A DNA stretch of 64,000 nucleotides from assembly GCF_963921235.1 (NCBI RefSeq), contig NC_086097.1, positions 18,912,001 to 18,976,000 of the forward strand, given 5' to 3'. Positions 2,922 through 56,125 of this stretch are shown here, piece after piece; positions within the stretch are counted from its first letter, which is position 1; each line of letters starts with the position of its first letter. Both the position numbers and the translations under genes were made by a program. The notes below the pieces were generated by a model, which saw only the letters and a program-made list of their open reading frames with translations, did not search any database and had not been told where the DNA came from. Origin of the DNA: Mobula hypostoma. Taxonomy: Eukaryota.

Positions 2922-3395
2922 ATAGATAGAACATAGAACAGCACAGCACAGGAACAGGTCCTTCGCCCACAATGTTGTGCCAAAACAACTAAATTAGTAA
3001 TCACAATACGCTGGAAAAACTCAGCAGGTTGGGCAGCATCAGTGGAAACGATGAGCATGATGCTGCCCGACCTGCTGAGTTTTTCCAGCGTATTGTGAGT
3101 GTTGCTTTGATCACAGCATCTGCAGATTATTTTGTGTTTAAAATTAGTAATCAAATGGCCACCTAAACTAATCTCTTCTGTCTACACAATGTCCATATCC
3201 TTCCATTTTTCTCACATTCATGTGCCAATCTAAACATCTAAACATTTAATTTATCTACCTCTACTACTACCCAAAGCTGTCCATTCCAGGCAACCACCAC
3301 TCTGTGTGCAAAATATTTGCTCTTCACATGTTTTTTGAAATTACCCCTCCCCCAATTTAAATGCACACCCTGTAATATTTCAGAGGTATATTCAA
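2922..3395 (-). mobile_element. CR1 3' end, host of the 3004-3140 insertion
   Basis: ATAGAACATAGAACAGCACAGCACAGGAACAGG tail and antisense HRVVVAWNG..VVVEVD motif. Confidence 0.75.
3004..3140. mobile_element. Short fold-back Penelope-derived element (family B) with 13-bp TSD
   Basis: 41-bp inverted arms 3001-3041 / 3058-3098 (40/41 match), tail ending GCAGATTATTTTGTGTTT, direct repeat AAATTAGTAATCA at 2991-3003 and 3141-3153. Confidence 0.85.
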
Positions 3396-7193: not shown

Positions 7194-8227
7194 ATAATAA
7201 TCTCATCTGTGTTTGAACGTAATGATCTATTATGTCAGTAGGCATAACATCACAAGTTGGCACATGTGACTTCCCAAGTATTGGCTGCAGGGGAAGCACC
7301 AAAGTTTATTCCAAAATGGTTTCCGTTCAAGATGTACCCCTCACAGGCTGACGTTACACAAAGTATAAATCTGTTACATAGTGTAAAATATATGTGCACA
7401 GCCTACACACCAGTGCTTTTGAAATAATACTGCTCTTGTCTACTTCTGGCACATAATAATGACAGGCAGCTGTGAGATACAGACCAATGGTGTTGCAGGG
7501 ATGAATCTGCAATTGCAATAAAGCACAACACTTGCACCAAGTTCCACACTGAATGCACTTCTAATGACTGACATTGCCTTCTGGAAGCACCAGAGTATTG
7601 AATTCTCATCTGTGTCAATATCTGCTCAGTGCCTAGTTTTATCTCTGATCAGTGCTTAAGACCTTGCCTGGGATCACACTACAGTACTGACACTTCAAAG
7701 CGTCAAAGAATTGAAGAACAAGAGAAAAAGAGTCCTTTGAAAATGTCTTTTTACCCTAACATGGAGTTACAAGACCCACAAATCTTCCCTACTGATAACA
7801 TTACTTTCTAATTGACTGTATAGAGCATTATATGCGTGATTCATTGATAGTGAAAGAGCTCTTTTTTGCCCATCTGTGCCAGCTTTAAAACTGCAATTGT
7901 TACCAGTAGATTGCTCTTCTTCCACAGCCCGACATAATTTTTTTGCTCTAATGTACATCCAATTCCCTTTTCAACATTGCTTTAATGACTTTCAAATCCT
8001 TTAAGATAACAAGTTCCAAACCCTAGCAACTCACTATGTTTCTTCCTATCCTCATCTATTTCTTTTACCAATTAACTCAGATAAAGTTTTCCATGTGACC
8101 TTAAAGATAAAGGCCAGTTAAAAAGACTTATTTGTTAATTCAGAAGCAGAATGCATTGTTTAATATAGCAATACAGTTAGCAACAGTGCATCTTCCAACT
8201 AGCCAAACAACCAGTATCAGGGAGTTG

Positions 8228-8478
8228 AAAGAGGCTTGTATTTATAGTGTCCATCAGATCTCTCTTTGGACATTCCAAATAATGTACAGCCAATGAAATA
8301 CTTTTAAAGTGATGTTACTGCTAAGTTGGAAACTGCAATCAAATTGTTTGCAACAAAATCCTATGAATAGCAATGTGAGGAAGACCAAGTAATTTCTTTT
8401 ATTGATGTGATTGATGAATAAGTAAGTTGGTGGGACTTTAAGAAGCATCCATTCTTCTTTGAGATTGTGCTACCTTTA
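8228..8478 (-). mobile_element. Ancient DeuSINE remnant, antisense
   Basis: CTTGTATTTATAGTG tail, TACAGCCAATGAAATACTTTTAAAGTG and AATAGCAATGTGA...GACCA match the reverse complement of the Deu 3' domain. Confidence 0.65.
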
Positions 8479-9397
8479 ATAAAAGAGCTTAAGAAATTGC
8501 AATGAAGTTCCAAATGTTTTAAAAATGTAATTTTTGTCATATTTTTTCATGTGGGTTGTTCAACAGATCAATCTACCAGTGTACCTTAGGACCTAGTCAA
8601 TACCCAGACTAGGAACTCCTGATGTCCCATTTGCCAGACAGAAGATAGTTCAAATGTCTAGATAGAGAACATACATATTTATAAAGCCTTTAATGGAATC
8701 CATTTTAAAAATCACTCAAACATTAATCTTAGAAGTCTCTGTTCTATAATAAACTGAAATGACAGAAAATACTGAACCTAATACAAGGGAGACATAACTT
8801 TAAGGTGTTGGGAGGAAAGTATGGAGGGGATGTCAAAGGCAGTTGTTTTTACACTGAGAGTGGCATGTGGAATGCTGAGCCTGGGATGGTGGTAGAAGCA
8901 CTTTTAAGAGACTCTTAGATGAAAGAAAAGTGAAGGGCTATGGGGACAAGAAGGGTTTGATTGATCATGGAGTAGGTTAAATGATCGGCACAAAATTGTG
9001 GGCCAAAAAGCCTGTACTCTATTGTAGTGCTCTCTGTTCTGAAACCAGCAGTACAAGCACTAATTGCAAACTGGGTAAAATGTGGGAAAATGTTCCAATT
9101 ACATGTGAATCCAGGAAATGGGAGTGTAAGGTCCAACACACTCCAACTGAAATGAAGGTAGACCACGCCAGTGGCAGGTAGCCCATTGGAGGAGTAAATC
9201 AAGTCCAGCAGCAAAGGTTTAGGAAATTTCATTCAATGAAAAGAAATTGGTCCTTGGCACATGCACCCCTTCCTTGCTGAAAGCAAAACAGGGGCAAACA
9301 AGCTGCATAGCAGGAAACAAAACATGGAAAGGTTAAAAAAGGATCCAGAGCTTTCCCAGCTTATATGATGAATAAACTCTTCTCAGGCTTCCAGCCG

Positions 9398-9468
9398 GGT
9401 CAGGTATCAATTTTAGCCAACATTTCAATGACGAACTCTGCCTTCTTCATCAGAGATAATGCCTGGGC
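9398..9468 (-). ncRNA. Type-I hammerhead ribozyme motif (left arm)
   Basis: Minus strand: gcccaggcattatct-CTGATGA-agaaggcagagttcgtcatt-GAAA-tGTT-ggctaaaattgatacctg; core boxes and NUH triplet intact. Confidence 0.7.
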
Positions 9469-9600
9469 ATGTCTAGTCTGGCGGTATTTATACCCGCATC
9501 GTCCATCCCTCCTGATTGGATAGTCCTCATCCACGGACAGCGGAAACCTGATTGAATGAGGACTAACCAATCAGGAAGGACAGGTTATGGGGGTAGACAT

Positions 9601-9670
9601 GCCCAGGCATCATCCCTGATGAAGATGGCGGAGTTTGGCATTAAAACATCTGTTAAAATCGATGCCTGGA
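9601..9670 (+). ncRNA. Type-I hammerhead ribozyme motif (right arm, core mutated)
   Basis: gcccaggcatcatcc-CTGATGA-agatggcggagtttggcatt-AAAA-catc-tgttaaaatc-gatgcctgg; CCAGGCATC/GATGCCTGG form a perfect 9-bp distal helix I; GAAA>AAAA and CGTC>CATC are CpG-type changes. Confidence 0.65.
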
Positions 9671-9904
9671 CCCAGCTGGAAGCCCAAGAAGAGTTTATTC
9701 GTGGAATGGTTAGTTAAAATTTTAATAAAAATTCAGTACCCTCTTGGCACAGCTCAAGGTAGATCATTCTCTCTGTCCAGATAGTACGGCTGATGAGGGC
9801 TAGGTCAATCTAATAAAAGCACAGAATCAGGCCAAGATAGTTCCTTCCCCACACAAAGGAGAGGAGGTTTGCGAGCAGAGGAAGGAGCAAGTATCAAGAA
9901 TCAA

Positions 9905-10440
9905 CTTTGCATGCAATTCTGGTTGCCCTATCATAGGAAGGATGTCCAGAATTTGGAGAGGGTACAGAAAAGATTTACCAGGATTCTGCATGGATTAGAG
10001 GGTATGAGCTGTAATGAGAGGGTGGACAAACTTGGGTTGTTTTCTCTGGAGTGGCAGAGGCTAAGAGGAGATCTGATGGAGGTTTATAAGGTTTTGAGAG
10101 GCTTAGATAGAGTGGACAGACAGTATCTTTTTCCCCAGGGTTGTAATGTCTAATACCAGAGGACGTGTATTTAACGTGAAAAGGGGATAATTTCAAAAGA
10201 TATGTGAGAGGCAAGTTTTTTACAGAATGGTGGTTGTCTGGAATGTCCTGGCTGGGTTGGTGACAGAGGCAGATATATTGGAAACATTTAAGAGACGTTT
10301 AGATAAGCACATGAATATGAGGATGATGGAGGGAAATACAGATTATGCAGGCGGAAGGGAGGTTTAGTTGGCCATTTGATTATTCATTTGGTTCAGCACA
10401 ACATGATGGGCTGAAGAGCCTGTTCCTGTTGTATGTTCTA
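9905..10440 (+). mobile_element. CR1 3' fragment
   Basis: CMQFWLPYHRKDVQNLERVQKRFTRIL.GLEG..LGLFSLEWQRLRGDLMEVYK; tail GGGCTGAAGAGCCTGTTCCTG..ATGTTCTA. Confidence 0.9.
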
Positions 10441-10949
10441 ACTTCATTCACCTTACACACTTACATGGATTAGGAATTTGCTGTGGTGTTGGTCGGGTGC
10501 GACATGAAACAAGAAGCAACATTTAATAATTATTAAGAATAAAGAGTTATTTAAAAATAAATTATATATAAACTAATATAGTAGGTGTTAAAGGGCGGAT
10601 ATGGAATAAAATATGGATAAATAAACGAATAGCAATATGTATTTACAGTGTAAACAACACTATAAAAAAGGTTTAAAGTGTCGACGGTGCAGTGCAGTGA
10701 CGGGGGTAATTGACAGAGCTAACTAGACGGGGGCTAACTAGATTTTTTTTATTCTTAAAGCGTCAAGAATTAAAGGAAACTTGAAGGGACGTGTATTTGA
10801 CAGAGAGCATTAGGGCGAAACAAAAATAATATTAAAATGTAGGAATGTTTTTAAAAAATGAAATCCAGGCCAGAAAATTCCCAAAAGAAAAAGTGGACAG
10901 GGAAGAGAACGAGCAACGTTGAAGTGTTGCTCTGCAGACGATTAGTATG

Positions 10950-11417
10950 CGGCTCACAGCTCGGTCTCCGCTCCGGAGAGGGAGGAGAGTACAGTAGAGG
11001 CAGACTGAGCGTTGGGGAAGAGAAGGAAAATAATGTGAGCTAGCCTGGCGCCGTAAATACACACACACACACACACACACGCCCGCCACCTGTGCTTCCA
11101 TAGAATTACCCTACCGGAGTCGCTCGGGTCATCGAGCTGAAGCCAGATGTTGTCTTGAACGCTCGGGTTTTCAGCGAAGCTCTACTGGGAAACTGAAGCG
11201 ACTGCCGGCAGTGTGCGGCGAGATCTACAAGTGATTCTTTAAACACCTCAAGCGCTTTAATAGGCTTTTTTTTCTCCCTGAGATTGCCACTGCTTACGGA
11301 ACCACCCCAGCCTTCGGGGACTTGTCAGCCGGGCTCCTGGCGGGTGCAGGCAAGCAGATGTCTCGATGTGCCTGTCCTACGCAACTTTGCTGCCGATGGC
11401 TTGTGGTTAGGGCTCAG
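10950..11417 (+). other. Putative first exon of an unidentified gene (start approximate)
   Basis: Ends in CAG|GTAAGG inside the CpG island; ATG at 11358 reads 20 open codons (MSRCACPTQLCCRWLVVRAQ) to the donor, phase 0. Confidence 0.4.
11059..11080. repeat. (AC)11 microsatellite
   Basis: Direct reading. Confidence 0.95.
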
Positions 11418-16002: not shown

Positions 16003-16532
16003 ATGAGACCCTTCATCAGGATTGGAGATAAAAAGATGAGGAGAAGGTGGGGGAGGTGAGGGAGAAACACAAGGTGATAGGTGAAACGGCGGGGGCGGGT
16101 TTAGAAAGAGCTGGGAAGTTGATTGGTGAAAGAGATAGCGGGCTGGAGAAGGGGGAATTTAATAGGAGCGGACAGAAGACCAAGGAAGGTAGAAAAAGTG
16201 GCGGGGTGGGGGGGCAGGCAAGGAGATAAGGCGAGAGAGGGAAAAGATGAAGCGTGGGGGGTATTACCAGAAGTCAAGAAATCGATGTTCATGCCATCAG
16301 GTTGGAGGCTACCCTGACGGAATATAAGGTGTTGTTCCTCCAACCTGAGGATGGACCCATGGCGACGGTAGAGGAGGCCATGGATAGACATATCAGAGTA
16401 GGAATGGGAAGTGGAATTAAAATGGATAGCCGCCGGGAGATCCTGCTTTTTCTGGCGGACGAAGTGTAGGTGCTCGGTGATGCGGGTCTCACAGTTTATG
16501 TCAGGTCTCTCCGATATACAGGAGGCCCACAC
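16003..16532 (-). mobile_element. Penelope-like element 3' fragment (GIY-YIG endonuclease C-terminus and start of pLTR)
   Basis: EHLHFVRQKKQDLPAAIHFNSTSHSYSDMSIHGLL..RLEEQHLIFRQGSLQPDGMNIDF, pyrimidine-rich 3' UTR, then CTGATGAAGGGTCTC (5' half of hammerhead). Confidence 0.85.
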
Positions 16533-17940: not shown

Positions 17941-19981
17941 ACATATAAAACCAAAAGACATAGGGGTAGAATTAGGCCATTCAGCCCATCGAGTCTGCTC
18001 CGCCATTCCATCATGGCTGATCCTGGATCCCACTCAACCCCATACTCCTTCACGCCATATACTTTGATATCCTGACCGATAGGAAACATATCAACTTCCG
18101 CCTTAAATATACGCACAAACTTGGCCTCCACTGCAGTCTGTGGCAGAGCATTCCACAGATCCACCACTCTCTGGCTAAAAAAAATCCTTACCTCTGTTCA
18201 AAAAGGGTCGCCCCTCAATTCTGAGGTGCTGCCCTCTAGTTCTGGATATCCCCACCATGGGAAACATCTTCTCCACATCCACCCTATCTAAACCTTTCAA
18301 CATTCAGGAGGTTTCAATGAGATCTCCATGTATTCTTCTAAATTCCAGTGAGTATAGATCTAAAGGTGCAAAACCCTCATCATATGTTAACCCTTTCATT
18401 CCCAGAATCATCCTCGTGAACCTCCTCTGGACTCTCTCCAATGACAACAGTTCCTTTCTAAGATACAGGGCCCAAAACTGTCGACAATACTGACCTGACT
18501 AGTGACTAAAGCTTTGGCATTATCTCCTTGTTTTTGTATTCTACTCCCCTTGAAATAAATGCCAACATTGTATTTGCCTTCTTTACCACAGACTCAACCT
18601 GTAATTTAACCGTATGTGAATCTTGCTCGAGGACTCCGAAGTCCCTTTGCACCTCTGATGTTTGAACCTTCTCTCCATTTAGACAATAGTCCGTGCTATT
18701 GTTCCTTTTACCAAAATGCATTATCATACATTTCCCAACACTGTATTCCATCTGTCACTTTTTTGTCCATTCTTCCAGTTTGTCCAAGTCCTGCTACAAT
18801 CACATTGCTTCCTCAGCACTACCTACCCCTCCACCTATCTTCGCATCATCCACAAACTTTGCCACAAAGCCATCAATTCATTATCCAAATCATTGACCAA
18901 CAATGTGAAAAGTAGCGGTCTCAATACTGACCCCTGAGGAACATTACCAATCACTGGCAGCCAACCAGATAAAGCTGCCTTTATTCCTTCTTACTGCCTT
19001 CAGCCCGTCAGCCATTCCTCTGTCTATGCCAGTATCTTTCCTATAACGCCATAGGATTTTATCTTGTTAAACAGCCTCATGTGTAGCATCTTATCCAATG
19101 CCCTCTGAAAATCCAAGTAAATAACCATTGTCTCTCCTTTGTCCACCCTGCTTGTTACTTTTTTGAAGAACTCTAAATTTGTCAGGCAAGATTTTCCTTT
19201 ACAGAAATCATACTGACTTTGACTTATTTTATCATTTGTCTCCAAGTACTCTGAAACCTTGCCTTAATAATAGACTCCAACACTTTCGCAATCACTGAAG
19301 TTAGGCTAACTGGCATATAATTTCCTTTCTTTTGCCTTCCTCTCTTCTTAAAGAGTGGAGTGACATTTGCAGCAATCCAGTCCTCCAGGACCATGCTAGA
19401 ATCAGCAACACTCACAACACGCTGGAGAAACTCAGCAAGTCGGGCAGCATCCGTGGAAATGATCAGTCAACGTTTCCGGCCCGAGATGTTGACTGATCGT
19501 TTCCACGGACGCTGCCCGACCCGCTGAGTTCCTCCAGCATGTTGTGAGTGTTGCTTTGACCTCAGCATCTGCAGATTATTTTGTGTTTACCATGCTAGAA
19601 TCAAGTGATTCTTGAAGGATCAGGACTAATGCATCCATTACTGTTCAGCTCCCTCTCTCAGGATCCTGGGATATAGTCCATCTGGCCCAGGAGACTTATC
19701 CACTTTAAGACCTTTGAGTTTGCCTAGAACTTCTTCCCTTGTAATAGCAATGACACTCACTCCTGCTCCCTGACACTTACGGACCTCTGGTACACTGCTA
19801 GTGTCTTCCACAGTGAAGGCTGATACAAAGTACTCATTACGTTCATCTGACATTTCTTTGTCCCCCATTAGTACCTCACCAGCATCATTTTCCAGTGGTC
19901 CAATATCAACTCTCACTTCCCTTTTACTCTTTATATAACTGAAAAAACTTTTGGTATCCTGTTTCATATTATTGGCTAGTT
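17941..19981 (-). mobile_element. CR1 LINE, 5'-truncated, ORF2 disrupted; contains fold-back insertion 19405-19588
   Basis: SFFSYIKSKRE, KVDKSPGPDG, EDWIAANVTPLFKK, GKSCLTNL, YLDFQRALDK, GKCMIMHFG; CR1 tail at the 17941 end. Confidence 0.92.
19405..19588. mobile_element. Fold-back Penelope-derived element (family B) with perfect 15-bp TSD
   Basis: ACCATGCTAGAATCA at 19390-19404 and 19589-19603; ~70-bp inverted arms meeting at CAGTCAACGTTTCCGGCCCGAGATGTTGACTG; same tail as 3004-3140. Confidence 0.9.
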
Positions 19982-34768: not shown

Positions 34769-35330
34769 AGCCACAGACACAACATTCAGTCTCAATTCGC
34801 AAGTTCTTTCACTATCATGCTGCCTACAACCAGCTGTGCAGTTTTTGGCTCTACCCAGCCCAACTGCTGTTAAACACCTTTGCATATATCTCTTTGCCTT
34901 CTGAACTGTTTAAATTGTTTCTTTGCTGGCCTAGCATCACCTGCAGATCCCCAAAGATGTACAGATCTTCTGGAGCACATTGAATATATTTTGGGTGGGT
35001 TAGATCTAATCAGGATCCATAAGACATGGGAGCAATATTGAGCCATTCAGCCCATCAACTCTACTCTGCTATTCGATCATGGCTGATTTATTTTCTCTCT
35101 TAAACTCATCATCCTGCCTTCTCTCCTTTGATGCCTTTACAATCCAACCCACTCCTAAATATTGGACTTTTAACCCCAGCATTCTCTTCATGCCACATTC
35201 CCACCCCTCCTGCTTTAATTTGCAACCTCCACATCCACTCCTGCTCCCTCCAAACTCTGTTTCTCTGACTGAAGGATTGTGCTTCTGCACGCCAGTTCTC
35301 CCGTCCTTTCCCAGACAATACTGTTCCATT

Positions 35331-36753
35331 ATAAGACCATAAGACCACAAGACAAAGGAGCAGAAGTCGGCCATTTGGCCTATCAAGTCATGAGCTGATC
35401 CATTCTCCCATTTAGTCCCACTCCCCCACCTTCTCACCATAACCTTTGATGCCCTGGCTACTCAGATACCTATCAATCTCTGCCTTTAAATACACCCAAT
35501 GACTTGGCCTCCACTGCTGCCCGTGGCAACAAATTCCAAAGATTCACCACCCTCTGACTAAAAAAATTTCTTCGCATTTCTGTTCTGAATGGGCGCCCTT
35601 CAATCCTTAAGTCATACCCTCTCGTACTAAACTCCCCCATCATGAGAAACAACTTTGCCACATCCACTCTATCCATGCCTTTCAACATTCGAAATGTTTC
35701 TGTGAGGTCTCCCCTCATTCTTCTAAACTCCAAGGAATACAGTCCAAGAGCGGACAAACATTCCTCATATGTTAACCCTCTCATTCCTGGAATCATTCTA
35801 GTGAATCTTCTCTGTACCCTCTCCAACGTCAGCACATCCTTTCTTAAATAAGGAGACCAAAACTGCCCACAGTACTCCAAGTGAGGTCTCACCAGCACCT
35901 TATAGAGCCTCAACATCACATCCCTGCTCCTATACTCTACTCCTCCAGAAATGAATGCCAAGATTGCATTCGCCTTCTTCAACACCGACTCAACCTGGAG
36001 GTTAACCTTAAGGGTGTCCTGTACGAGGACTCCCAAGTCCCGTTGCATCTCAGAACTTTGAATTCTCTCCCCATTTAAATAATAGTCTGCCCGTTTATTT
36101 CTTCTGCCAAAGTGCATAACCATACACTTTCCAACATTGTATTTCATTTACCACTTCTTTGTCCATTCTTCCAATCTATCCAAGCCTCTCTGCAGACTGT
36201 TTCCTCAGCACTACCGGCCCCTCCACCTATCTTTGTATCATCAGCAAACTTAGCCACAAAGCCATCTATTCCATAATCCAAATCGTTGATGTACAACGTA
36301 AAAAGAAGCGGCCCCAACACGGACCCCTGTGGAATACCACTGGTAAACGGCAGCCAACCAGAATAGGATCCCTTTATTCCCACTCTCTGTTTCCTGCCAA
36401 TCAACCAACACTCTATCCACGTATGTAACTTTCCCATAATTCCATGGGCTCTTATCTTGTTTAGCAGCCTCATGTGTGGCACCTTGTTAAAGGCCTTCTG
36501 AAAATCCAAATATACAACATCCACTGCATCTCCCTTGTCTAGCCTACTTGTAATTTCCTCAAAAAATTGTAATAGGTTTGTCAGGCAGGATTTTCCTTTA
36601 AGGAATCCATGCTGAGTTCTGCCTATCTTGTCATATGCCTCCAGGTACTCTGTAACCTCATCCTTGACAATCGACTCCAACAACTTCCCAACCACGGATG
36701 TCAAGCTAACAGGTCTATAATTTCCTCTTTGCTTCCTTGCTCCCTTCTTGAAA
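35331..36753 (-). mobile_element. Young 5'-truncated CR1 (RT domain in two frames)
   Basis: ORFs 36144-36782 (NYRPVSLTS, YLDFQKAF, PQGSVLGP, KFADDTK) and 35473-36147; (CCATAAGA)n tail; highly similar to the 3' part of 43421-46675. Confidence 0.95.
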
Positions 36754-36807
36754 ATTTTGTTTGGTGTAGTCTGTGTCTGCATGCAACAGTAAGTAGATGT
36801 AGGAGGC

Positions 36808-42062: not shown

Positions 42063-43420
42063 GCAGACAGCATCATCACATTTGAAAAGGTACCATTGAA
42101 AGCTTGAGTAAGAGGGATTAACCTATTATTTGAGTGCAGCAAGAACATGTTGAGTTCGATAGCGATAGCCTCCACTAAAGCCATAAGTGTTTCTGCTTCT
42201 ACCGCTTGGCCTTCAATTCCAGTCTCCATTCCTCGTGAGCGATATTTACATTTTTGATCTTGTGCTATTTGTGTCTCTCCCAGTCCTAACCTGGAACGTT
42301 ACTGATTTGCCATCCTGTCATTCCTTTTCTCACCTTCTCAGGTTCATTACCCATTAAACATTAAAAGATTAAATAGTAGCTTTATTTGTCGCATGTATAT
42401 TGAAACGTACAGTGAAATGCTTCGTTTGCGTCAAATCAAATCAGTGAGGATTGTGCTAGGCAGCCTGCAAATGTTGACACGCTTCAAGCATGCCCACAAT
42501 CCTCTAACCTGAACTGTACATCTTTGGAAAGTGCAAGGAAGCTTGAGCACTTATGGAAAACACACCCAGTCACACGGAGAACATACAAACTCCTTACAGA
42601 CAGCGACAGCAGTCAAACTTCAAGCTCACAATCAGTGCCGTGAAGCAATTGCACAAATCACTATGCCCCTTATAACATCAAGCACTGACTCTTTTCCTGT
42701 TGGATTTTGGCTTATGATTCAAGAAAGGTGTCCCCTATGCACTTTGCAAAAGCCTATTTCCCTCTTATTCTTTCACTTCTTCCTGATAGCTTACATGGAG
42801 TTAACTGTAATCTCTTGTGGTTATTACTTAGTTGACTACTTGCTACACATAGTTGCCTACACCAGTTACATTCCACTATTTGGGAACTGATCAAGTCTCC
42901 ATTTTGGTTTTCAGTCTTAGGTGCATGGATTGTGACCAAATAAAAAATGGCTGGAGTGGCTTCGCACAGAAAAATCAAACACACAAAATAGCAAAAACTG
43001 TGAGGAGAAAACTGCCAAATTTTATAAATTGTCTTGTAAATTGTCCTGTGATTAGCCTAGGGTTAAATAGGTGGGTTGAGGGGCAGTGAAGCTTGTTGGA
43101 CCAAAAGGGCTTGTTTCATGCTGTATCTCTCAATATAATAAATGGATTCTATAACCACCTTGTCAATTTTGTATTCCTTTTCTATTAGGTGCCATAAAGT
43201 TTCATCTTAAATATGTTATGTCCTTCAATATTTAATTGTTAATCCCTTTCTATTTGACCATCGTCAGTTATATCTACTATATCTGAAACCTCTTTCCTAA
43301 TTATCACCCCTATTTTATTTGAATATTATTGATTGATACTTCCCTCTGTCCACTATTTTAAGTTGTTTCTGCTTTGTTCTTTGTTTTTATAACTTTGAGC
43401 ATTATGGATCGCTGGGTAGT

Positions 43421-46400
43421 CCATAAGACCATAAGACAAAGGAGCCGAAGTCGGCCATTCCGCCCATCGACTCTGCTCCGCCATTTTATCATGAGCTGAT
43501 CCATTCTCCCATTTAGTCCCACTCCCCCACCTTCTCACCATAACCTTTGATGCCCTGGCTACTCAGATACCTATCAATCTCTGCCTTAAATACACCCAAT
43601 GACTTGACCTCCACTGCCGCCCGTGGCAACAAATTCCATAGATTCACCACCCTCTGGCTAAAAAAATTTCTTCGCATTTCTGTTCTGAATGGGTGCCCTT
43701 CAATCCTTAAGTCATGCTCTCTCGTACTAGACTCCCCCACCATGGGAAACAACTTTGCCACATCCACTCTGTCCGTGCCTTTCAACATTCGAAATGTTTC
43801 TGTGAGGTCTCCCCTCATTCTTCTAAACTCCAAGGAATACAGTCCAAGAGCGGACAAACATTCCTCATATAGTTATCCTCTCATTCCCGGAATCATTCTA
43901 GTGAATCTTCTCTGTACCCTCTCCAACATCAGCACATCCTTTCTTAAATAAGGAGACCAAAAGTGCCCACAGTACTCCAAGTGAGGTCTTACCAGTGCCT
44001 TATAGAGCCTCAACATCACATCCCTGCTCCTATACTCTATTCCTCTAGGAATGAATGCCAACATTGCATTCGCCTTCTTCACCACTGACTCAACCTGGAG
44101 GTTAACCTTAAGGGTATCCTGCACAAGGACTCCCAAGTCCTGTTGCATCTCAGAACTTTGAATTCTCTCCCCATTTAAATAATAGTCTGCCCATTTATTT
44201 CTTCTGCCAAAGTGCATAACCATACACTTTCCAACATTGTATTTCATTTGCCACTTCTTTGCCCATTCTCCCAATCTATCCAAGTCTCTCTGCAGATTGT
44301 TTCCTCAGCACTACCGGCCCCTCCACCTATCTTTGTATCATCAGCAAACTTAGCCACAACGCCATCTATTCGATAACCCAAATCGTTGATGTACAATGTA
44401 AAAAGAAGCGGCCCCAACACGGACCCCTGTTGAACACCACTGGTAACCGGCAACCAACCAGAATAGGATCCCTTTATTCCCATTCTGTTTCCTGCCAATC
44501 AGCCAACGCTCTATCCACGTATGTAACTTTCCCATAATTCCATGGGCTCTTATCATGTTAAGTAGCTTCATGTGTGGCACCTTGTCAAAGGCCTTCTGGA
44601 AATCCAAATATACAACATCCGCTGCATCTCCCTTGTCTAGCCTACTTGTAGTTTCCTCAAAAAAATTGTAATAGATTTGTCAGGCAGGAGTTTCCTTTAA
44701 GAAATCCATGCTGAGTTCTGCCTATCTTGTCATATGCCTCCAGGTACTCCGTAACCTCATCCTTGACAATCGACTCCATCAACTTCCCAACCACCGATGA
44801 TAAAGCTAACAGATCTATAATTTCCTTTTTGCTTCCTTGCCCCCTTCTTAAATAGCGGAGTGACATTTGCAATTTTCCAGTCCTCTAGAACCATGCCGGA
44901 ATCTATCGACTTTTGAAAGATCATTGCTAATGCCTCTGCAGTCTCCACAGCTACTTCCTTCAGAACACTAGGGTGCATTCCATCTGGTCCAGGAGATTTA
45001 TCTACCTTTAGACTATTCAGCTTCCTGAGTACTTTCTCTGTCGTAATTGTGACTGCGCACACTTCTCTTCCCTGCCACCCTTGAGTGTCCGATATACTGC
45101 TGATGTCTTCCTCAGTGAAGACTGATGCAAAATATTCGTTCAGTTCCTCCGCCATCTCCTTATCTCCCATTGCAATTTCTCCAGCATCATTTTCTATCGG
45201 TCCTATATCTACTCTCACCTGTCTTTTACTCTTTATATACTTGAAAAAGCTTTTAGTATCCTCTTTGATATTATTTTTTAGCTTCCTTTCAGAGTTCATC
45301 TTTTCCCTCTTAGTGACCTTCTTAGTTTCCTTTTGTAAGCTTTTAAAAACTTCCCAATCCTCTGTCTTCCCACTAATTTTTGCTTCCTTGTATGCCCTCT
45401 CCTTTTCTTTAACTTTGGCTTTGACTTTGGCTTTGGCTTCTCAGCCACGGTTGCATCCTTTTTCCATTCGAAAATTTCTTTTTTTGGAATATATCTGCTT
45501 TGAACCTTCCTCACTTCTCGCATAAACTCCAGCCACTGCTGCTCTGCCGTCCTTCCTCCTAGTATCCTTTTCCAGTCAGCTTTGACCAGTTCCTCTCTCA
45601 TGCCACTGTAATTTCCTTTACTCCACTGAAATACCGACACATCGGATTTTGGCTTCTCTTTTTCAAATTTCACAGTGAACTCAATCATGTTATGATCACT
45701 GCTTCCTAAGGGTTCCTTCATCTCAATCTCCCTAATCATCTCTGGTTTGTTACACAATACCCAATCCAGTACAGCGGATCCCCTAGTGGGCTCAACAACA
45801 AGCTGTTCTAAAAAGCCATCTCGCAGACATTCTACAAATTCTCTCTCTTGAGATCCAGTGCCAACTGGATTTTCCCAATCCACTCGCATATTAAAATCCC
45901 CCACAATTTTCATAACACTGCCCTTCTGGCAAGCCTTTTCTATTTCCTGTTGTAATTTGTAGTCCACATCACTGCAGCTGTTTGGAGGCCTGTATATAAC
46001 TGCCAGCAGGGTCCTTTTACCCCTGCGATTTCTTAGCTCAACCCATAAAGATTCTGCATCTTCTGATCCTATGCCACCTCTTTCTAATGATTTAATATCA
46101 TTTCTTACCAATAAAGCCACGCCTCCCCCTCTGCCTACCTTCCTATCCTTCCGATACACCGTGTATCCTTGGACGTTCAGCTCCCAGAGACATGCATCCT
46201 TTAGCCAGGTCTCAGTGATGGCCACAATATCATACCTGCCAATCTGTAGCTGTACAACAAGATCATCCACCTTATTCCTTATGCTGCGTGCATTTAAGTA
46301 TAACACCTTAAGGCCAGTATTTGTTACTTTTTCCTTTGATTGCACTGCAACTTTATTGCACTGCAACTCATCCCAATGGCTGTAGATTTGCCCCATCACC

Positions 46401-46675
46401 TGCCTGTCTTTCCTCACATCTTTACTGCTCACTATTTTTGATTTATTTCTGTTTTCCCCTTCCTCCGCTCTATCATTCCGGTTCCCATCCCCCTGCCAAA
46501 TTAGTTTAAACCCTCCCTAACAGCTCTGTTAAACCTTCCCGCCAGGATATTGGTCCCCTTCGGGTTCAGGTGTAACCCGTCCATTTTGAAGAGGTCATTC
46601 TTCCCCCAGAAGAGTTCCCAATGATCCAGGAATCTGAAGCCCTGCCCCCTGCCCCAGTCTCTCAGCCACACATCC
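43421..46675 (-). mobile_element. CR1 LINE truncated within ORF1; ORF2 (APE endonuclease + RT) frameshifted
   Basis: ORF1 end WLRDWGRGQGFRFLDHW..DGLHLN; ORF2 LYLNARS, AITETWL, IYRPP, GDFN, LDWV, SDH, then RT motifs over several frames; (CCATAAGA)n tail. Confidence 0.95.
45296..46432 (-). pseudogene. CR1 ORF2 apurinic-like endonuclease segment
   Basis: 378-aa ORF with NARS, ETW, YRPP, GDFN and SDH motifs; drifts out of frame at its C-terminus. Confidence 0.9.
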
Positions 46676-47720: not shown

Positions 47721-48606
47721 CCTCCCACATACCAGAATCTTGCCACTGCCACTTTCTCTTTAATTTATCGAACACGGTGTTTATTTATTGTTGGTTATCC
47801 ATGATTTAATTATCTGAACTAATTGGTCATTTGAGATCTAATCTCATTAAAAAGGTGGGCTTAGCTTGATTTCACATGATTTAGATGGGATTAGATTTGT
47901 TATTAACATTTCAAAAATACATTTAAAATTTAATCACTTGGAAGTGTCCAGTGACTTAAAATTGCACTTGTATTAAATTGTTGCACTTAAATTATTGCTA
48001 ACTGAGATTAATAGTAATCATTAGATGTAGGAAGAATCCAAACCCTTGGCACTACTTGTTCCTTTATGTCTTTGGGCCTAATGCTCGACTCTGTGATTTG
48101 GGGGTTGATGTGCCTGTTCCGTTTTTGTTTGTTTTTTTGTACGGGGGTGGGGGGGTACTCAGGAGTTGGTGATCGTGCTGCCTTTCTTTCTTGGTTTCAT
48201 GGCTACCTGGAGAAGAATTTCAGTTGTAGACGTTGATAATATTTGAACCTTTATAGATTTTGCAATGGTTGCAGAGGACTGGTGTTGTGTATGTGGCCTG
48301 TTTATACAACTACGTTATTAATAAAAACGCTGGAGATGGGAACTAAGTTTCATGGTTCTCTACTGGTAGAATCCGAACTTAACACATGCATACAGATCAA
48401 TACATGCCTAATAGCACGTGCAACAACGTGTTACTAAAACATAAAGTAGTCTCTTATTATAATGTAGGCTCTACGGTACACTCTTCCCCTTCTATTTTAA
48501 TAGTGTATCAACTGTATTTTTTTACTGGGGCACTATGCTAAACAAATATGTTTACCCTTAACATACAAATGCCTACCTTTTTTTTTACTTTTGGTCTAAG
48601 ACCCAC

Positions 48607-51600
48607 TTAGAACTCAAGTCTCTGGGGAGGCCTTCTCTGCCTCTCCGGGTAACGTCTGTCCTGAAATGTTTGCTTTGGGGAATTAGTCTTCGCAGGTACA
48701 TCAGGTGGGCCATCAGCACTGATGACAGGCTTATCTGTGGATGAGGCTGATGTGGTCACATCAGGAGTGTTTCCTTCTATGTCCGGGGAGTCCGGGCAAG
48801 GTGTTCTTGTGTTTTTCACCTGAGCATCCAGGATTTGGTCCACATGACGTCTCCATACATTCTCTCCAACCTCCACCATATACATCAGTGGCCTGTCTAT
48901 GGCGGAAATTGTACCCGGCTGCCACTTTTCAGTCTGGTAATCACGTGCAAGAACTGACTGTCCCACACTGAAGCTCTGTGTTGACTTAACATTCAAGTGT
49001 TTGAACTGTCTGTTCTCCGCATCACGCCGTACATTTGGTTTGAGAAGATCCATGTGGGACCTCAGGTTTCTGTTCAGAAACATCATCGCTGGAGTCTGGT
49101 TAGTGGTTGCATGTACTGCATTATGATAGACAAGGAGGAAGTTATCTATCTTGTGTTGCAGTGGTCGATTTTCACTGTCCATTGACTTGATGGCTTTCTT
49201 GAATGTCTGCACAAATCTTCCTGCCAAGCCATTTGTGGATGGATGGTAAGAGGCAGATGTAAAGTGCTTGATTCCATTGTTCTTCACAAGACTTTGGAAT
49301 TCTTTAGAGACAGATTGTCATCCATTGTCTGTGCAGATTTGTTCTGGTATGCCATTCCTGGCCCTCAGAACTGTAATGGTCTTTTCCGATGTGGTTGCCT
49401 TCACTATGATGACCTCTGGCCATTTGGAAATGTGCATCGACGGCGATTAAAAAGATAGAGCCATGAATGGTCCAGCAAAGTCGATGTGCACTCGTTGCCA
49501 TGGCGATGAGGGCCACTCCCACGGATGGAGAGGGGCTTGTGGTGGCGTGTTCTGGATCTTTAGACATCCAGAGTAGTTCTTGGTTATGTCCTCAAACTGT
49601 TTATCGATTCCTGGCCACTACATATAGGCACAGGCCTGACCTTTCATCTTCACGGTACCCAGGTGACCCTCATGCAGTTCCTCCAGCACTCTGGTGCGTA
49701 GCTTGGGAGGAATCACAACTCGTGAGCCACACATTAGTGTTCCCTGACACACTGACAACTGCTCATTCCTCGCTGAGAAGGCTGGACACAGTGTGTTACC
49801 CCGCGTTGGCCATCCCTTTCCCGTGACAACATAGGGTCATTGCGTGTTTCTCTTTCAATGAGGCTGTTTGTCACTGGTAATTGTTCAACTATTGTTGTGT
49901 GAAAGACCTCTGCTGAATCCATTTGTGTAGTTATCTCTGAAGTCGGCAGTGGTAAACGTGACAACCCATCTGCGTTGCCGTGTTGCTTGGTCCCCTTGTG
50001 TTCAATGTCATACATGTGACCTCCTGAGAAAAGAGACCATCGCTGCAGCCTTTGCGCTGTCATCACTGGAAAGCCTTTTTCTTTGGTTGAAGATTGACAC
50101 GAGAGGCTGATGGTCAGTCAACAGAGTAAACTTTTGACCATACAGGTGGTGACTGAATTTCTTGATTCCCCACACGAGGCTTAGGGCCTCTCTGTCAATC
50201 AGTGCGTAGTTGTGTTCAGCTGAAGTTAGCGTTCTTGAGGCAAAGGCTATTGGTCTTTCTGCGCCATCTGGAAAATTGTGCAATAACACAGTTCCTATCC
50301 CTTGGGGTGAGGCATCACAAGCCAGTCAGATTGGTAAGGAGGGTCAAAATGCACGAGCACCCCTTCCGAAGTTATGAGTCTTTTAGTTTCTTGAAATGCT
50401 TTCTCACATCTCTCATTCCACTTCTATTGTGTCCCTGTCTGTAATAGTGCGTTTAGTGGGTGTAGGACTGTGGATAAGTTAGGCAAGAACTTGTGGTAAT
50501 AGTTCACTAATCCAAGGTATGCTCTCAGCTGAGACACATTTTCAGGTGGCGGTGCCTTAAGCACTGCTTCCATCTTGTCTTGAGACATGTGTAAGCCATC
50601 CTTGTTGATCACACGCCCACAGTATGAAATTTCCTTTTTGAAAACCTCACATTTCTGTCAATTAGCTCTGAACCCATATTCTTGTAACCTGGTGAGCACT
50701 TGTTCAAGGTTAGAAAGATGTTCGTCGTCATCTTTGCCGGTGACAATGACGTCATCCACGTATCACTGCGTCCTTGGAATCCCCTGCAGGACCTGGTCCA
50801 TTGCCCTTTGCCAGATTGCAGGAGCTGATGCTATCACAAACACCAATCTGTTGTACTGGTAAATTCCTTTATGTGTATTTATTGTCAGGTATTTCTTGGA
50901 TGTTTCACCGATTTCCATTTGGAGATAAGCCTGGGACAAATCAATTTTTGTAAACATTCCCCTCCTGACAGGGAAGCAAAGATGTCCTCAATACGAGGTA
51001 GAGGATACTGTACTGTGTGGAGAACTGGGTTAACAGTCACTTTAAAGTCTCCACATATACACACCTTGCTTGGTTTTCCTGGTTTTGTGCTGGAGGTTTT
51101 CTTCATCACTGGAACAATAGGCATGGCCCAGCCACTCCAATCCACCTTTGACAGGACCCCAGTCTGCTCCAGATTTTTCAGCTCGGCCTCTACTGTAGGA
51201 TGGATTGCATATGGCACTGGTCTGGCTTTGTGAAATTTTGAAAATGCATTTTCCTCAATCTCAATCTTTGCCTTCATGCCCTGAAGTGTTCCTATTCCTT
51301 TCAGGAACACTTCCTCAGAGTCAGCAAGTATTTGTGACAGTCTCTCGGATGTAGCCTTGCCTCCCTTCTTTGATGACATATTTAGTGCCTTGACGGTGTA
51401 CCAATCCAACTGGATTTTCCTGAGCCATTCACGTCCCAGCAACGGTGGTTCTCCATTTTTCAGTACATAGAGGTTCACCTGCTGTGCTTTGTCTCTGTGG
51501 GTCACTGTCCCTTTAATTTTACCTTTGGGACGCACTCTCTATCCTGTACAGGTCTTTAGCAGCACTTTAGTTTGTTTCAGAGTACGTGAGAAAACAGTCA

Positions 51601-52194: not shown

Positions 52195-52346
52195 GAACGA
52201 TAGAACGATAGAACACCACAGCACAGAGAAAAGGCCACTCGGCCCTTCTAGTTTGTGCCAAAACTTTATTCCGCTAGTCCCATTGATCTGCACCCAGTCC
52301 ATAATCCTCTAGACCTCTCCCATCCATGTATCTATCCAATTTATTC

Positions 52347-55139
52347 TTAAAACTTAAGAGTAAGCCCGTATTTACCACAGCAGATGGCAGCTCGTTCCAT
52401 ACTCCCACCACTCTGAGTGAAGTTCCCCCTAAACCTTTCCCCTTTCACCCTGAAGCCATGTCCTCTCATATTTATCTCAACTAATCTAAGTGGCAAGAGC
52501 CTACTCGCATTTACTCTGTCTATACCCCTCACAATTTTGTAAACCTCTATCAAATCCCCCCTCATTCTTCTACGCTCCAAGGAATAAAGTCCTAACCTGT
52601 TCAATCTTTCCCTGTAATTCAACTCCTGAAGACCTGGCAACATTCCAGTAAATTTTCTCTGCACTCTTTCAATCTTACTGATATCCTTCCTATAGTTAGG
52701 TGACCAGAACTGCACACAATACTCCAAATTTGGCCTCACCAATGTCTTATACAACCTCACCATAACATCCCAACTCTTATACTCAATACTTTGATTTATG
52801 AATGCCAGGATGCCAAAAGCCTTCTTTACAACCCTGTCTACTTGTGATGCCACTTTCAGGGAATTATGTATCTGAACTTCCAGATCCCTTTGTTCCTCCA
52901 CACTCCTCAGTGCCCTAACCATTTACTGTGTATGTCCTACCTTGATTTGTCCTTCCAAAATGCAACATCTCACACTTGTCTGCATTAAATTCCATCTGCC
53001 ATTTTCTGGCCCATTTTTCTATCTGGTCCAGATCTCTCTGCAAGCTTTGAAAGCCTTCCTTGCTGTCCACAACGCCACTAATCTTAGTGTCATCAGCAAA
53101 CTTGCTGATCCAATTTACCATATTATCATCTAGATCATTGATATAGACAACAGACAACAATGGTCCCAGCACAGATCCTTGAGGCACACCACTAGTCACA
53201 GGCCTCCAGTCTGAGAAGCAATCATCCTCTACCACTCTCTGTCTTCTCCCACACAGCCAATTTCAAATCTAGTTTACGACCTCTCCGTGGATACCTAGTG
53301 TCTGAACCTTCTGAACTAACCTCCCATGTGGGACCTAGTCAAAGGCCTTACTAAAGTCCATGTAGACAATATCCACAGCCTTTCCTTCATCTACTTCCTT
53401 GGTAACCTCCTCAAAAAACTCTACAAGATTCGTTAAACATGATCTACCATGCACAAAGCCATGCTGACTATCCTTAATCCGCCCTTGGCTGTCCAAATAC
53501 TTGTATATCCAATCTCTCAGAACACCTTCCAATAATTTACCTACTACTGATGTCAGGCTCACCGGCCTGTAATTACCTGGTTTACTTTTGGAGCCCTTTT
53601 TGAACAACAGAACAACATGAGCTACCCTCCAATCCTCCGGCACCGCACCTGTGGCTAAGGACATTTTAAATATTTCTGCCAGGGCCCCTGCAATTTCTAC
53701 ACTAGTCTCTCTCAAGATCCAAGGAAATATCATGTCAGACCTGGGGGATTTATCTACCTTTATTTGCTGTAAGGCAGCAAGCACCTCCTCCTCTTTAATC
53801 TCTATATGTTCCATGACACTACTGCTTGTTTCCTTTCCTTCCATATATACTCTGCCAGTTTCCTGGGTAAATACTGATGCAAAAGAACTGTTTAAGATCT
53901 CCCCCATCTCGTGAGGCTTCACACATAGACGACTACTCTGATCTTCTAGGGGACCAATTTTGTCCCTTACTATCCTTTTACTCTTAATATACTCATAGAA
54001 ACCCCTCGGGTTTACCTTCACACTATCTGCCAAAGCAACCTCATGTCTTCTTTTTGCCTTTCTGATTTCCTTCTCTAGTATTTTCTTACATTTTCTATAT
54101 TCTTCAAGTACCTCATTTGTTCTTTGTTGCCTATACCTGCTGTACACCTCTCTCTTTTTCTTAACCAGATCACCAATATCCCTTGAAAACCAAGGTTCCC
54201 TATGCCTGTTAAGTTTGCTTTTAATCCTGGCAGGAACATGCAAACTCTGCATTCTCAAATTTTCGCCTTTGTAGGCCTTCCACTTACTGAACATATCCTT
54301 GCCAGAAAACAATTTATCCCAGTCCACTCTTCCTAGATCCTTTCTCATTTCCACAGAATTGGCCCTTCTCCAATTTAGAACCTCAACTTGAGGACCAGAC
54401 CTATCCTTATCCATAATTAATTTGAAACTAATGACATTATGGTCCTGGACCCAAAATGTTCGCCTACACATAGTTCTGTCGCCTGACTTGTCTGGTTCCC
54501 TAATAGGAGATCTAGTATTGCATCCTGTCTCATAGGTACCTCTATATATTGACCTAGAAAACTTTACTGAACACATTTGACAAACTCCAAGCCATCTATC
54601 CCTTTCACACTGTGGAAGTCCCAGTCAATATGTGGAAAGTTAAAATCCCCTACTATTACAACTTCCTGTTTTTTTGCATCGGTCTGCTATCTCTCTACAG
54701 ATTTGCTCCTCCAATTCTCTCTGACTATTGGGCGGTCTATAATACAACCGTATTAGTGTGGTCACACCTTTTCCGTTCCTTAGCTCCAACCATATGGCCA
54801 CTGTAGATATGTCCTCCGGGCTGTCCTGTCTATGCACACCTGTGATATTTTCCCTGACTAGTAATGCCACTCTTCCCCTTTCATCCCTCCCCCTCTGTCA
54901 CGTCGGAAACAACGGAACCCTGGAACATTAAGCTGCCAGTCCTGTCCCTCCTGCAACTAAGTCTCACTAATAGCAATAATGTCATAATCCCATGTGCCAA
55001 TCCACGCCCTAAACTCATCTGCCTTACCTACAATACTCCTTGCATTGAAATAGATGCACCTGAGAACATTTCTATCATGTACAAACCTTTGATTTCCATC
55101 TATACATGCAGTTCTTGCTTGACCTTTATCCTCCTCCAC
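52347..55139 (-). pseudogene. CR1 ORF2 (endonuclease + RT), disrupted
   Basis: YFNARS..AISET*, YYRPP, KSPRSD, NYRPVSLTS, YMDFSKAFD*, PQGSVLGP, KFADDTK over five ORF fragments. Confidence 0.92.
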
Positions 55140-55183
55140 CTCACTATCTGCTCTAACACTCTGGTTCCCCTCCCCCCGTAAAT

Positions 55184-56125
55184 CTAGTTTAAACTCCCCA
55201 GAGCAGCACTAGCAAATCTACCTGCAAGGATGTTATTCCCCCTACAGTTCAGGTGCAACCCGTCCCGTCGGAACAGGTCCCACCTTCTCTGGAACAAAGC
55301 CCAGTTGTCCAGAAACATGAAGCCCTCCCTCCTGCACCAACTCCTTAGCCACGTATTCAGCTGCATTATCTTCCTATTTCTAGCCTCACTAGCACGTGGC
55401 ACGGGTAGCAATCCTGAGATTGCAACCATGGAGGTCCTGTCCTTCAACTTTGCACCTAACTCCCTAAACTTTCTTTGCAGGACCTCCTCCTCCTTCCTAT
55501 ACACATCATTGGTCCCTACATGGACCACAACATCTGGTTGCTCACCCTTCCTCCTGAGAATACCGAGAACTCGATCCGAGATATCGCGGACCCTGGCACC
55601 AGGGAGGCAACAGACCATCCGGGATTCTCGATCTCTCCCACAGAACCTCTTATCTGTCCCCCTAAATATCGAATCTCCCATCACTACTGCTCTCCTCTTT
55701 TCCGTCCTTCCCTTCTGAGCTGAGGGTCCAGTCTCGGTGCCAGAGATGCAACCACTGCAACTTGTCCCTGGTAGGTCGTCCCCACCAACGGTGTCCAAAA
55801 CGGTATACTTACTGTTGATGGGAATGGCCACAGGGGTACACTGCTCATTCCGTCTATTCTCCCTCCCTCTCCTGACAGTCACCCAGCTACCTACCTCCTG
55901 ACTTTTCGGGGTGACTGTCTCCCCGAAACTCCTGACTATTTCTGCCTCTGCTTCATGAATAATCCAAAGTTCATCCAGCTCCAGCTCCACTTCCCTAACT
56001 CGGTTTGTCAGGAGCTGCAGCTGGATGCACCTTTTACAGGTGTAGTCCTCAGGGACGATTGTGCTGTCCCTGACTTCCCACATACTGCATACAGAGCACT
56101 CGACTGCCCTAACTGCTGCCTCCAT
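55184..56125 (-). CDS. CR1 ORF1 protein: zinc finger/leucine zipper plus SGNH esterase (313 aa, open)
   Basis: CSVC..CKRC, heptad LQLLTNRVREVELEL, GDS, PGARVRD, HVGTND, DGLH blocks. Confidence 0.93.
   Translation of the reverse strand: MEAAVRAVECSVCSMWEVRDSTIVPEDYTCKRCIQLQLLTNRVREVELELDELWIIHEAEAEIVRSFGETVTPKSQEVGSWVTVRRGRENRRNEQCTPVAIPINSKYTVLDTVGGDDLPGTSCSGCISGTETGPSAQKGRTEKRRAVVMGDSIFRGTDKRFCGRDRESRMVCCLPGARVRDISDRVLGILRRKGEQPDVVVHVGTNDVYRKEEEVLQRKFRELGAKLKDRTSMVAISGLLPVPRASEARNRKIMQLNTWLRSWCRREGFMFLDNWALFQRRWDLFRRDGLHLNCRGNNILAGRFASAALGSLN

What the first reader, a model, noticed from the sequence alone, without database searches (positions are those of the whole stretch)
9336..9700. Palindromic non-coding element with a hammerhead ribozyme in each arm and its own CCAAT/TATA promoter
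Seen: a ~330-bp inverted repeat with a 34-bp one-sided tail and an 11/13 TSD. Each arm has a type-I hammerhead layout (CTGATGA, helix II, GAAA, NUH, helix I with internal loop and 9-bp distal stem). The arm differences at the core are CpG-type and reconstruct GAAA-CGUC, a loopless helix III with palindromic ACGU. On the minus arm a CCAAT box (9512-9519) and TATAAATA (9485-9492) sit ~30 nt upstream of the core. Established: Penelope-like pLTRs carry minimal hammerheads proposed to cleave as dimers, and PLE insertions often have inverted pLTRs. Inference: a non-autonomous ribozyme-bearing hairpin unit that could be transcribed outward from its centre or form long dsRNA on read-through. It differs from the family A/B pLTRs, and no coding partner is visible in the window.
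Basis: partly seen in the sequence, partly recalled or inferred. Interest (0 to 1): 0.7.

Follow-up and report, generated by a model that had tools for sequence, protein, structure and literature searches.

The report
Dead fold-back Penelope retroelement stub
This 365-base hairpin-shaped insert is two broken-off ends of a very abundant Penelope-type jumping gene joined head to head, each with a worn-out copy of a small self-cutting RNA motif, which is an already described and ordinary outcome of how such elements insert.

Summary
In detail: inverted arms 9370-9533/9535-9700 (82% alike), a 34-bp one-sided tail, a target duplication (12 bp, 10/12) and a minimal hammerhead layout in each arm. Public contigs laid on it show a high-copy family (9,034 contigs in one run) with edges at 9336 and 9700, an optional tail, majority letters that restore helix II and GAAA, and TATA as a family feature that only this right arm lost. 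But other copies run on past this centre or fold back elsewhere, so the palindrome is not a fixed unit. The layout matches the 3' end of anole Poseidon: ATG at the start of stem II, cut site 26 nt later, tail ending near +110. So it is two 5'-truncated pLTR copies joined head to head; CCAAT/TATA is most likely the parent's pLTR promoter. Both cores are damaged here and lie on opposite strands. The coding parent was not found. Inverted truncated copies, tails and opposite-strand hammerhead pairs are in print, and this scan noted the same kind of stub on other DNA. Ordinary; interest 0.15.

The parts
9324..9335 (.). Left copy of the target-site duplication (12 bp)
   Evidence: 10/12 match to 9701-9712; 91 of 200,000 random pairs do as well; family edge at 9336
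9336..9369 (-). 34-bp one-sided tail (optional 3' extension of the family; +77 to +110 from the ATG position)
   Evidence: 238 loose ends before 9336 in X1; loose-end consensus behind 9700 in X5 matches the tail's reverse complement at 23 of 30 letters (counted by eye); positions
9370..9533 (-). Left arm: inverted, 5'-truncated copy of the element's 3' end (pLTR)
   Evidence: family pieces end at 9532-9533 (table 8)
9515..9519 (-). CCAAT box, left arm
   Evidence: function not tested
9485..9492 (-). TATAAATA box, left arm; family feature
   Evidence: 190 contigs in X1 carry it upstream of 9594 (table 7); function not tested
9400..9466 (-). Decayed minimal type-I hammerhead, left arm (CTGATGA 9453-9447; helix II 5/7; GAAA 9426-9423; cut position 9419 is U; distal helix I 7/9)
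   Evidence: does not fold as a hammerhead, z -0.4
9534..9534 (.). Junction of the two copies (one base belonging to neither family piece)
   Evidence: listed pieces stop at 9533 or start at 9535; none of the 32 listed pieces spans it, 27,329 pieces not shown
9535..9700 (+). Right arm: 5'-truncated copy of the element's 3' end, 18 nt longer at its 5' end than the left arm, with a private 17-nt deletion that removes the TATA box
   Evidence: 175 contigs continue upstream of 9535 with a shared sequence
9535..9555 (+). Possible last six codons and stop of the parent ORF (GQRKPD-stop)
   Evidence: translation; in frame with an open 10-codon loose-end consensus (read by hand); protein searches blank; inference only
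9567..9571 (+). CCAAT box, right arm
9603..9669 (+). Decayed minimal type-I hammerhead, right arm (CTGATGA 9616-9622; unpaired A 9623; helix II 9624-9630/9636-9642, 6/7; AAAA for GAAA at 9643; cut position C9650; distal helix I 9/9)
   Evidence: family majority letters
9625..9700 (+). ATG at the start of helix II and 25 open codons: likely start of the next tandem ORF, as in anole Poseidon
   Evidence: cut position is the 26th base from the ATG; PMC11167929 text; 90% of depth at 9443 restores the ATG in the left arm
9701..9712 (.). Right copy of the target-site duplication

Best explanation
The insert is a single, old, dead-on-arrival integration product of an endonuclease-bearing Penelope-like element, probably of the Penelope/Poseidon type. 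Shown: a high-copy dispersed family whose 3' end carries CCAAT, TATA, a minimal hammerhead, an ATG at the start of helix II and an optional 34-nt tail; this insertion holds two differently truncated copies of that end, 5' to 5', between duplicated target bases; the centre varies among copies. Inferred, by analogy with anole Poseidon: the parent's RT-endonuclease cut AT-rich DNA and primed reverse transcription inside the RNA at two sites, +110 (giving the arm with the tail) and +76 (the arm without); both cDNAs stopped after about 180-200 nt and were joined, so the mirror symmetry was made at insertion. CCAAT/TATA is the pLTR promoter that drives the next ORF in a tandem copy; here it has no ORF behind it. 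The hammerheads are passengers that have decayed like the rest, mostly at CpG.
For: Family depth 8,741-130,081 in bins wholly inside the element against 12.6 on the flanks in X1 (about 700-10,000 fold; the tool warns that this is no copy number); 9,034, 8,514 and 8,355 contigs laid in three runs of three organisms. Tail optional and left edge AT-rich (table 7). Centre not fixed: 175, 162 and 187 contigs run on upstream of 9535; same-strand joints 9400>9670 (7 contigs X1, 2 X5), 9400>9677 (2 and 2), 9394>9670 (1 X1, 1 X13); 375 joints not shown. Majority letters give helix II 7/7, an unpaired base before G10.1, a G10.1-C11.1 pair (56% of depth) and GAAA (59%), the features listed for metazoan minimal hammerheads. 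ATG-to-cut distance 26 nt and tail end +109/+110 against 26 bp and RT start at 111-118 in anole Poseidon. Inverted 5'-truncated copy plus a 30-40-bp one-sided tail is the typical arrangement; head-to-head is the commonest inversion, with 8-10-bp TSDs and a TATA in the pLTR, which includes the first ORF codons; opposite-strand hammerhead pairs 100-700 bp apart are reported (here 163 bp). The other pLTR family in this window makes the same stubs with different centres, 98 and 152 bp.
Against: No RT/GIY-YIG ORF was tied to this family: no genome was available, DNA scans were blank and protein searches were blank. The 25 open codons after the ATG are not significant alone (about 1 in 3 for a given frame, by simple calculation). 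The palindromic base at 9648 is G in only 38% of depth in X1, and the X5 loose-end consensus shows the decayed form. The clade label rests on one positional match and on a recalled C-terminal motif that the supplement search did not confirm. D. virilis Penelope has a TATA-less internal promoter, so CCAAT/TATA is not a general PLE trait. The recurring joint 9400>9670 could be a small amplified subfamily.
Confidence: 0.88

Rival explanations
1. A fixed, non-autonomous hairpin element with its own promoter that is copied as a unit by PLE proteins.
For: Clean TSD around the whole palindrome; high copy number of the arm; one short fold-back joint recurs in 7 contigs of X1 and 2 of X5.
Against: Junction 9533/9535 is in none of the 15 listed joints or 32 listed pieces, while 175 contigs continue past it into other sequence. 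The stub ends at +76/+110, whereas anole Poseidon needs RNA to +172 for insertion in vitro, so by analogy its RNA lacks the part the protein binds. TATA is lost from one arm.
Confidence: 0.05
2. The arm belongs to a non-autonomous pLTR-derived family (retrozyme-like or internally deleted PLE) rather than to truncated copies of a coding parent; the inversion is still made at insertion.
For: No coding parent found; pLTR-derived retrozymes are reported in one cartilaginous fish genome.
Against: No head-to-tail tandem here. Upstream sequence shared by 175 contigs reads open in frame up to the stop at 9553-9555 (by hand), as expected of an ORF end; ATG and tail positions fit a coding PLE.
Confidence: 0.05
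3. The insertion was co-opted by the host as a source of dsRNA/small RNA or as a promoter.
For: Stable predicted hairpin; intact CCAAT/TATA on the left arm; insertion shared with organism B and perhaps E (table 8).
Against: Arms differ by 18% with a 17-nt deletion; no significant strand bias for G.U-keeping changes, 6 vs 14, p 0.12; flanks in B are as conserved as expected for a close relative (3 and 1 differences), so sharing shows age, not selection.
Confidence: 0.02

Closest known systems
Poseidon from Anolis carolinensis (PAc; PMC11167929, parts 1-2 of 4 read, passages, supplement search)
   Same: ATG at the start of hammerhead stem II, cut site 26 nt after it, RT start near +110, tail between two RT starts, AT-rich targets.
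   Different: No ORF shown here; sequence likeness to PAc not tested (its consensus was not among the supplement text held); PAc promoter boxes are not described in the passages seen.
EN+ PLE insertions with an inverted 5'-truncated copy and one-sided tail (PMC8557442, 12 of 22 passages; PMC3846280, 9 passages)
   Same: Head-to-head inverted copies of unequal length, 34-bp tail at one end, TSD, TATA-like box and first ORF codons in the pLTR.
   Different: Both copies are cut down to the pLTR, so no ORF body lies between the arms; TSD 12 bp against 8-10 bp in the rotifer examples; a CCAAT box as well.
Minimal type-I hammerheads of metazoan PLEs (PMC4209133, parts 1-2 of 4 read)
   Same: 7-bp helix II, short helix I, unpaired base before 10.1, G10.1-C11.1, palindromic 15.2-16.2, no loop 3; dual motifs on opposite strands 100-700 bp apart.
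   Different: Both cores at this locus are mutated; covariation and cleavage were not shown.
Non-LTR retrozymes (bioRxiv 10.64898/2026.07.22.740005, parts 1-3 of 5 read)
   Same: pLTR-derived, type-I hammerhead, present in cartilaginous fish.
   Different: Retrozymes are head-to-tail tandems with same-strand ribozymes; this is a head-to-head pair with opposite-strand, decayed motifs.

Membership tests
EN+ Penelope-like element insertion | Minimal hammerhead in the terminal repeat near the 3' end | tested here: met
   Layout in both arms; family majority letters restore helix II and GAAA
EN+ Penelope-like element insertion | Optional 30-40-bp tail at one end | tested here: met
   34 bp at 9336-9369; other copies carry it behind 9700 or end without it; feature
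EN+ Penelope-like element insertion | Inverted 5'-truncated copy next to the 5' end, with variable junction | tested here: met
   Arms truncated at different points; three other same-strand centres listed, 375 joints not shown
EN+ Penelope-like element insertion | Target-site duplication of about 8-12 bp | tested here: met
   12 bp, 10/12; 91 of 200,000 by chance
EN+ Penelope-like element insertion | pLTR includes the first codons of the ORF (PAc: ATG at stem II, cut at +26, RT start +111-118) | tested here: met
   ATG 9625, cut position 26th base, tail end +109/+110; positional match, open frame itself not significant
EN+ Penelope-like element insertion | Parent with a telomerase-like RT and GIY-YIG endonuclease ORF | tested here: inconclusive
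   No genome; DNA scans 0 hits; protein searches blank, and the same database also gave nothing for the window's other PLE relic
Penelope/Poseidon clade | RT phylogeny and absence of the Neptune linker motif | not testable with these tools
   No ORF sequence of this family obtained
Metazoan minimal hammerhead (min-HHR) | Unpaired base between 9 and 10.1; G10.1-C11.1 pair | tested here: met
   A9623; G9624 with C at 9642 in 56%, 55%, 55% of depth in X1, X5, X13; both arms here have U
Metazoan minimal hammerhead (min-HHR) | Palindromic 15.2-16.2 without loop 3 | tested here: inconclusive
   G at 9648 in 38%, 36%, 37% of depth; loose-end consensus has the intact form in X1 and X13, the decayed form in X5; CpG decay and bias to the window's letters expected; absent in both arms here
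Metazoan minimal hammerhead (min-HHR) | Covariation in helices across copies | not testable with these tools
   Individual copies could not be retrieved; only per-position letter shares
Metazoan minimal hammerhead (min-HHR) | Self-cleavage as dimer | not testable with these tools
   Bench assay needed
Rfam hammerhead models | Score in cmscan | tested here: not met
   No hammerhead family among 7 matches (whole window, E<=1) or 2 matches (9300-9750, E<=10); the other family's hammerheads in the window were missed too, so the blank says little
Non-LTR retrozyme | Head-to-tail tandem units, each with a same-strand hammerhead | tested here: not met
   No direct repeat of the unit in 8000-11000 or the window; tandem arrays elsewhere in the genome not tested
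Fixed palindromic non-autonomous unit (MITE-like) | Same centre in many copies | tested here: not met
   175 contigs pass 9535 into other sequence; this junction is in none of 15 listed joints (375 not shown)

The most novel reading that the evidence does not exclude
This lineage has an LTR-like upstream CCAAT/TATA promoter whose predicted start site (about 9467-9461, 25-31 nt after the TATA, a recalled rule) falls inside the 5' strand of helix I (9466-9458). The ribozyme, whose cut lies 26 nt inside the ORF, would then be complete only in read-through or tandem RNA and crippled in the element's own mRNA: a built-in switch that would say what PLE hammerheads are for. Thousands of stubs would also scatter ready-made promoters and fold-back RNA sources over the genome.
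Probability: 0.1. Interest if true: 0.5.

Novelty: new member of a known kind. Interest (0 to 1): 0.15.

Why it matters
As a single insertion it matters little: it is a tidy textbook case of PLE integration. Two small points have use. The ATG, cut site and tail positions match those measured for anole Poseidon, which suggests that this geometry is kept between a lizard element and one from what looks like a cartilaginous fish. And thousands of stubs with variable centres are material for working out how PLE inversions form, which is still open. The family itself may be uncatalogued; Dfam and Repbase could not be searched.

Tried and rejected
No genome held, so no genome-wide BLAST. Rfam: no hammerhead match, uninformative. 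Exact-pattern scans of viral, prokaryote-genome and metagenome contigs: 0 hits each. Protein searches for the parent: alignment of three window frames, longer proteins 6 candidates, none at E<=10; near lengths no candidate; the other PLE relic, no candidate. The profile-library search was run on the wrong reading frame by my slip; its 5 hits are repeat-array translations (3 of 5 looked at) and say nothing. Pfam on 41 of 248 open frames: 0 families. Idea rejected: that the parent ORF runs through the promoter boxes and stops in the hammerhead core (left arm open for 27 codons); position 9555 is not among the listed differences although its bin has depth 117,160, so the family most likely has the stop there (57 differences not shown). 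'Opposite strand' joints were not counted, since a single arm maps on both arms. Table 5c joints were not counted, since their kind is not given. No RNA holder listed; run X9 is only guessed to be RNA and was not used as evidence. Single-arm folds do not give a hammerhead (z -2.1, -0.4, -1.7, +0.8). Paper searches for this family or layout: (0 papers; 0; 2; 3; 2), seen as listings only, except the retrozyme preprint; none names it in title or abstract start; the library lacks most subscription papers. Lunse et al. not held; seen only as a citation. Supplements of the bioRxiv preprint, which list cartilaginous-fish retrozyme families, were not seen and may bear on novelty. Search of earlier findings by sequence and by nearby place: nothing.

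Full report
Setting. No genome is held for this window. The window is mostly retroelement debris: Pfam finds an endonuclease, an esterase-type ORF1, RT and an integrase piece among 7 frames tested. Earlier notes of this scan call the host a ray-like cartilaginous fish (unchecked, and I did not try to name it).

Observation. The inverted repeat is real: arms 9370-9533 and 9553-9700 align at 82% with a 17-nt and a 1-nt gap, and the insert folds at -200 kcal/mol with z -13.6. There is no second copy in the window. The tail is 9336-9369. With edges defined by public contigs the duplication is 12 bp with 10 matches; 91 of 200,000 random pairs match as well. Each arm has CTGATGA, a 7-bp helix II frame, a GAAA position and a cut position. 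At this locus both are damaged: the right arm has AAAA for GAAA (the lost G is the general base, recalled) and 6/7 pairs; the left arm has 5/7 pairs and U at the cut position. Rfam finds no hammerhead here or at the other family's copies.

The family. Of 24 runs listed I laid four at 80% likeness. 9,034, 8,514 and 8,355 contigs lie on the stretch in runs of three organisms, and 246 in a small fourth run. Depth in X1 is 12.6 on the flanks and 8,741-130,081 in bins inside the element, so the arm is a high-copy dispersed repeat; the tool warns that depth is no copy number. Contigs break off at 9336 into unrelated AT-rich sequence (238 in X1, agreement 0.40) and at 9699/9700 (133 and 172), where the consensus of what follows resembles the tail, so the tail is an optional part of the family's 3' end. 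Majority letters at 9630 (91%), 9638 (95%), 9642 (56%) and 9643 (59%) give a 7/7 helix II closed by G-C and an intact GAAA; 9648 is G in 38%. That is the minimal hammerhead of Cervera and de la Pena (PMC4209133, parts 1-2 read), with the CpG positions half decayed across copies, as expected of relics under no selection. The perfect 9-bp distal stem is not the family state: 94% and 92% of depth differ at 9664 and 9669, giving 7/9. TATAAATA is the family state (190 contigs carry it upstream of 9594); this right arm lost it in the 17-nt deletion.

The palindrome is not a unit. The left arm stops at 9533 and the right arm starts at 9535. In X1, X5 and X13, 175, 162 and 187 contigs continue upstream of 9535 into one shared sequence (agreement 0.77-0.79) that is not the left arm. 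Same-strand joints show fold-backs with other centres: 9400>9670 (7 contigs X1, 2 X5), 9400>9677 (2 and 2), 9394>9670 (1 X1, 1 X13). This locus's junction is in none of 15 listed joints or 32 listed pieces; 375 joints and 27,329 pieces were not shown, so this is not a full count. The other pLTR family in the window makes the same stubs, 3001-3098 and 19404-19555, with different centres and a shared one-sided extension.

What the arm is. [quoted passage not shown] Here an ATG at 9625 begins helix II, the cut position 9650 is the 26th base, the arm ends at +76 and the tail at +109 (+110 with the 1-nt gap); 90% of depth restores that ATG in the left arm. The frame is open for 25 codons, which alone is not significant. 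Upstream, 9535-9555 reads six codons and a stop in frame with an open 10-codon loose-end consensus; it looks like an ORF end, but that rests on recall and the searches did not confirm it. So the arm reads as the pLTR: end of ORF, CCAAT, TATA, hammerhead, start of the next ORF. PLE pLTRs hold the promoter for the downstream tandem copy (PMC6765202 passages; PMC2377424 passages, where the fly promoter is TATA-less; a putative TATA in a rotifer pLTR).

Mechanism. Shown: family, edges, tail, TSD, variable centres, decay. Inferred: internal priming at two sites on AT-rich DNA, early stop of both cDNAs, head-to-head joining. The recurring 9400>9670 joint sits on a 4-base palindrome of the family, which would fit the self-priming idea of PMC3846280, but I did not test it. 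The stub should be immobile, since anole Poseidon needs RNA to +172 and the stub ends at +110; this is analogy. The two ribozymes are on opposite strands, so one transcript holds one sense copy, and a read-through RNA would bury it in the long hairpin. No strand shows selection for pairing (6 vs 14, p 0.12). Contigs cross from flank into the element in organism B (3 and 1 differences), and by only 25 letters in organism E (15 differences in 157), so the insertion is older than the A/B split and perhaps than the split from E.

Known or new. An inverted 5'-truncated copy with a 30-40-bp tail at one end is the typical arrangement (PMC8557442 passages), and dual minimal hammerheads on opposite strands 100-700 bp apart were reported in 2014; here they are 163 bp apart. 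This scan's earlier notes describe the same kind of stub on other DNA (unchecked, not support). Searches showed no paper naming this family; Dfam and Repbase were not available. Against my reading: the coding parent was not found, covariation and cleavage were not tested, and the clade label is tentative. Verdict: a new member of a known kind, confidence 0.88, interest 0.15.

Noticed in passing
window 16272-16525 (-): Broken Penelope-like GIY-YIG C-terminus (YIG motif seen; Neptune-like by recall), near a pLTR hammerhead of the other family at 15745 (+). Pfam blank; Atlas third hit 0.93 with GIY-YIG on 15% of members, a lead only.
   Followed up: partly
window 3001-3140 and 19404-19600: Two fold-back stubs of the other pLTR family, 98 and 152 bp, with different centres and a shared one-sided extension; both are cut before the CTGATGA half of the hammerhead.
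   Followed up: partly
window 9664 and 9669: Two changes from the family majority, 5 bases apart, both perfect the local stem with 9603-9611; may be one template-switch event or a minor subfamily (6-8% of depth).
   Followed up: no
window 9400 / 9670: A very short fold-back (about 31 bp per arm) centred on a 4-base palindrome recurs in 7 contigs of X1 and 2 of X5: a hot spot of inversion or a small subfamily.
   Followed up: no
window 9340-9363: The tail folds into a small 5-bp hairpin in the prediction.
   Followed up: no
window 43400-46500, 52200-56100, 35300-36800, 62700-63850 (all -): Long LINE copies (CR1-like by recall) with endonuclease, esterase-type ORF1 and RT frames; 35334-36752 and 43418-44852 are 93% alike.
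   Followed up: partly
window 48600-51550 (-): Broken LTR-retrotransposon pol region (Gypsy-like by recall); weak integrase hit, E 0.00024, below the Pfam cut-off.
   Followed up: no
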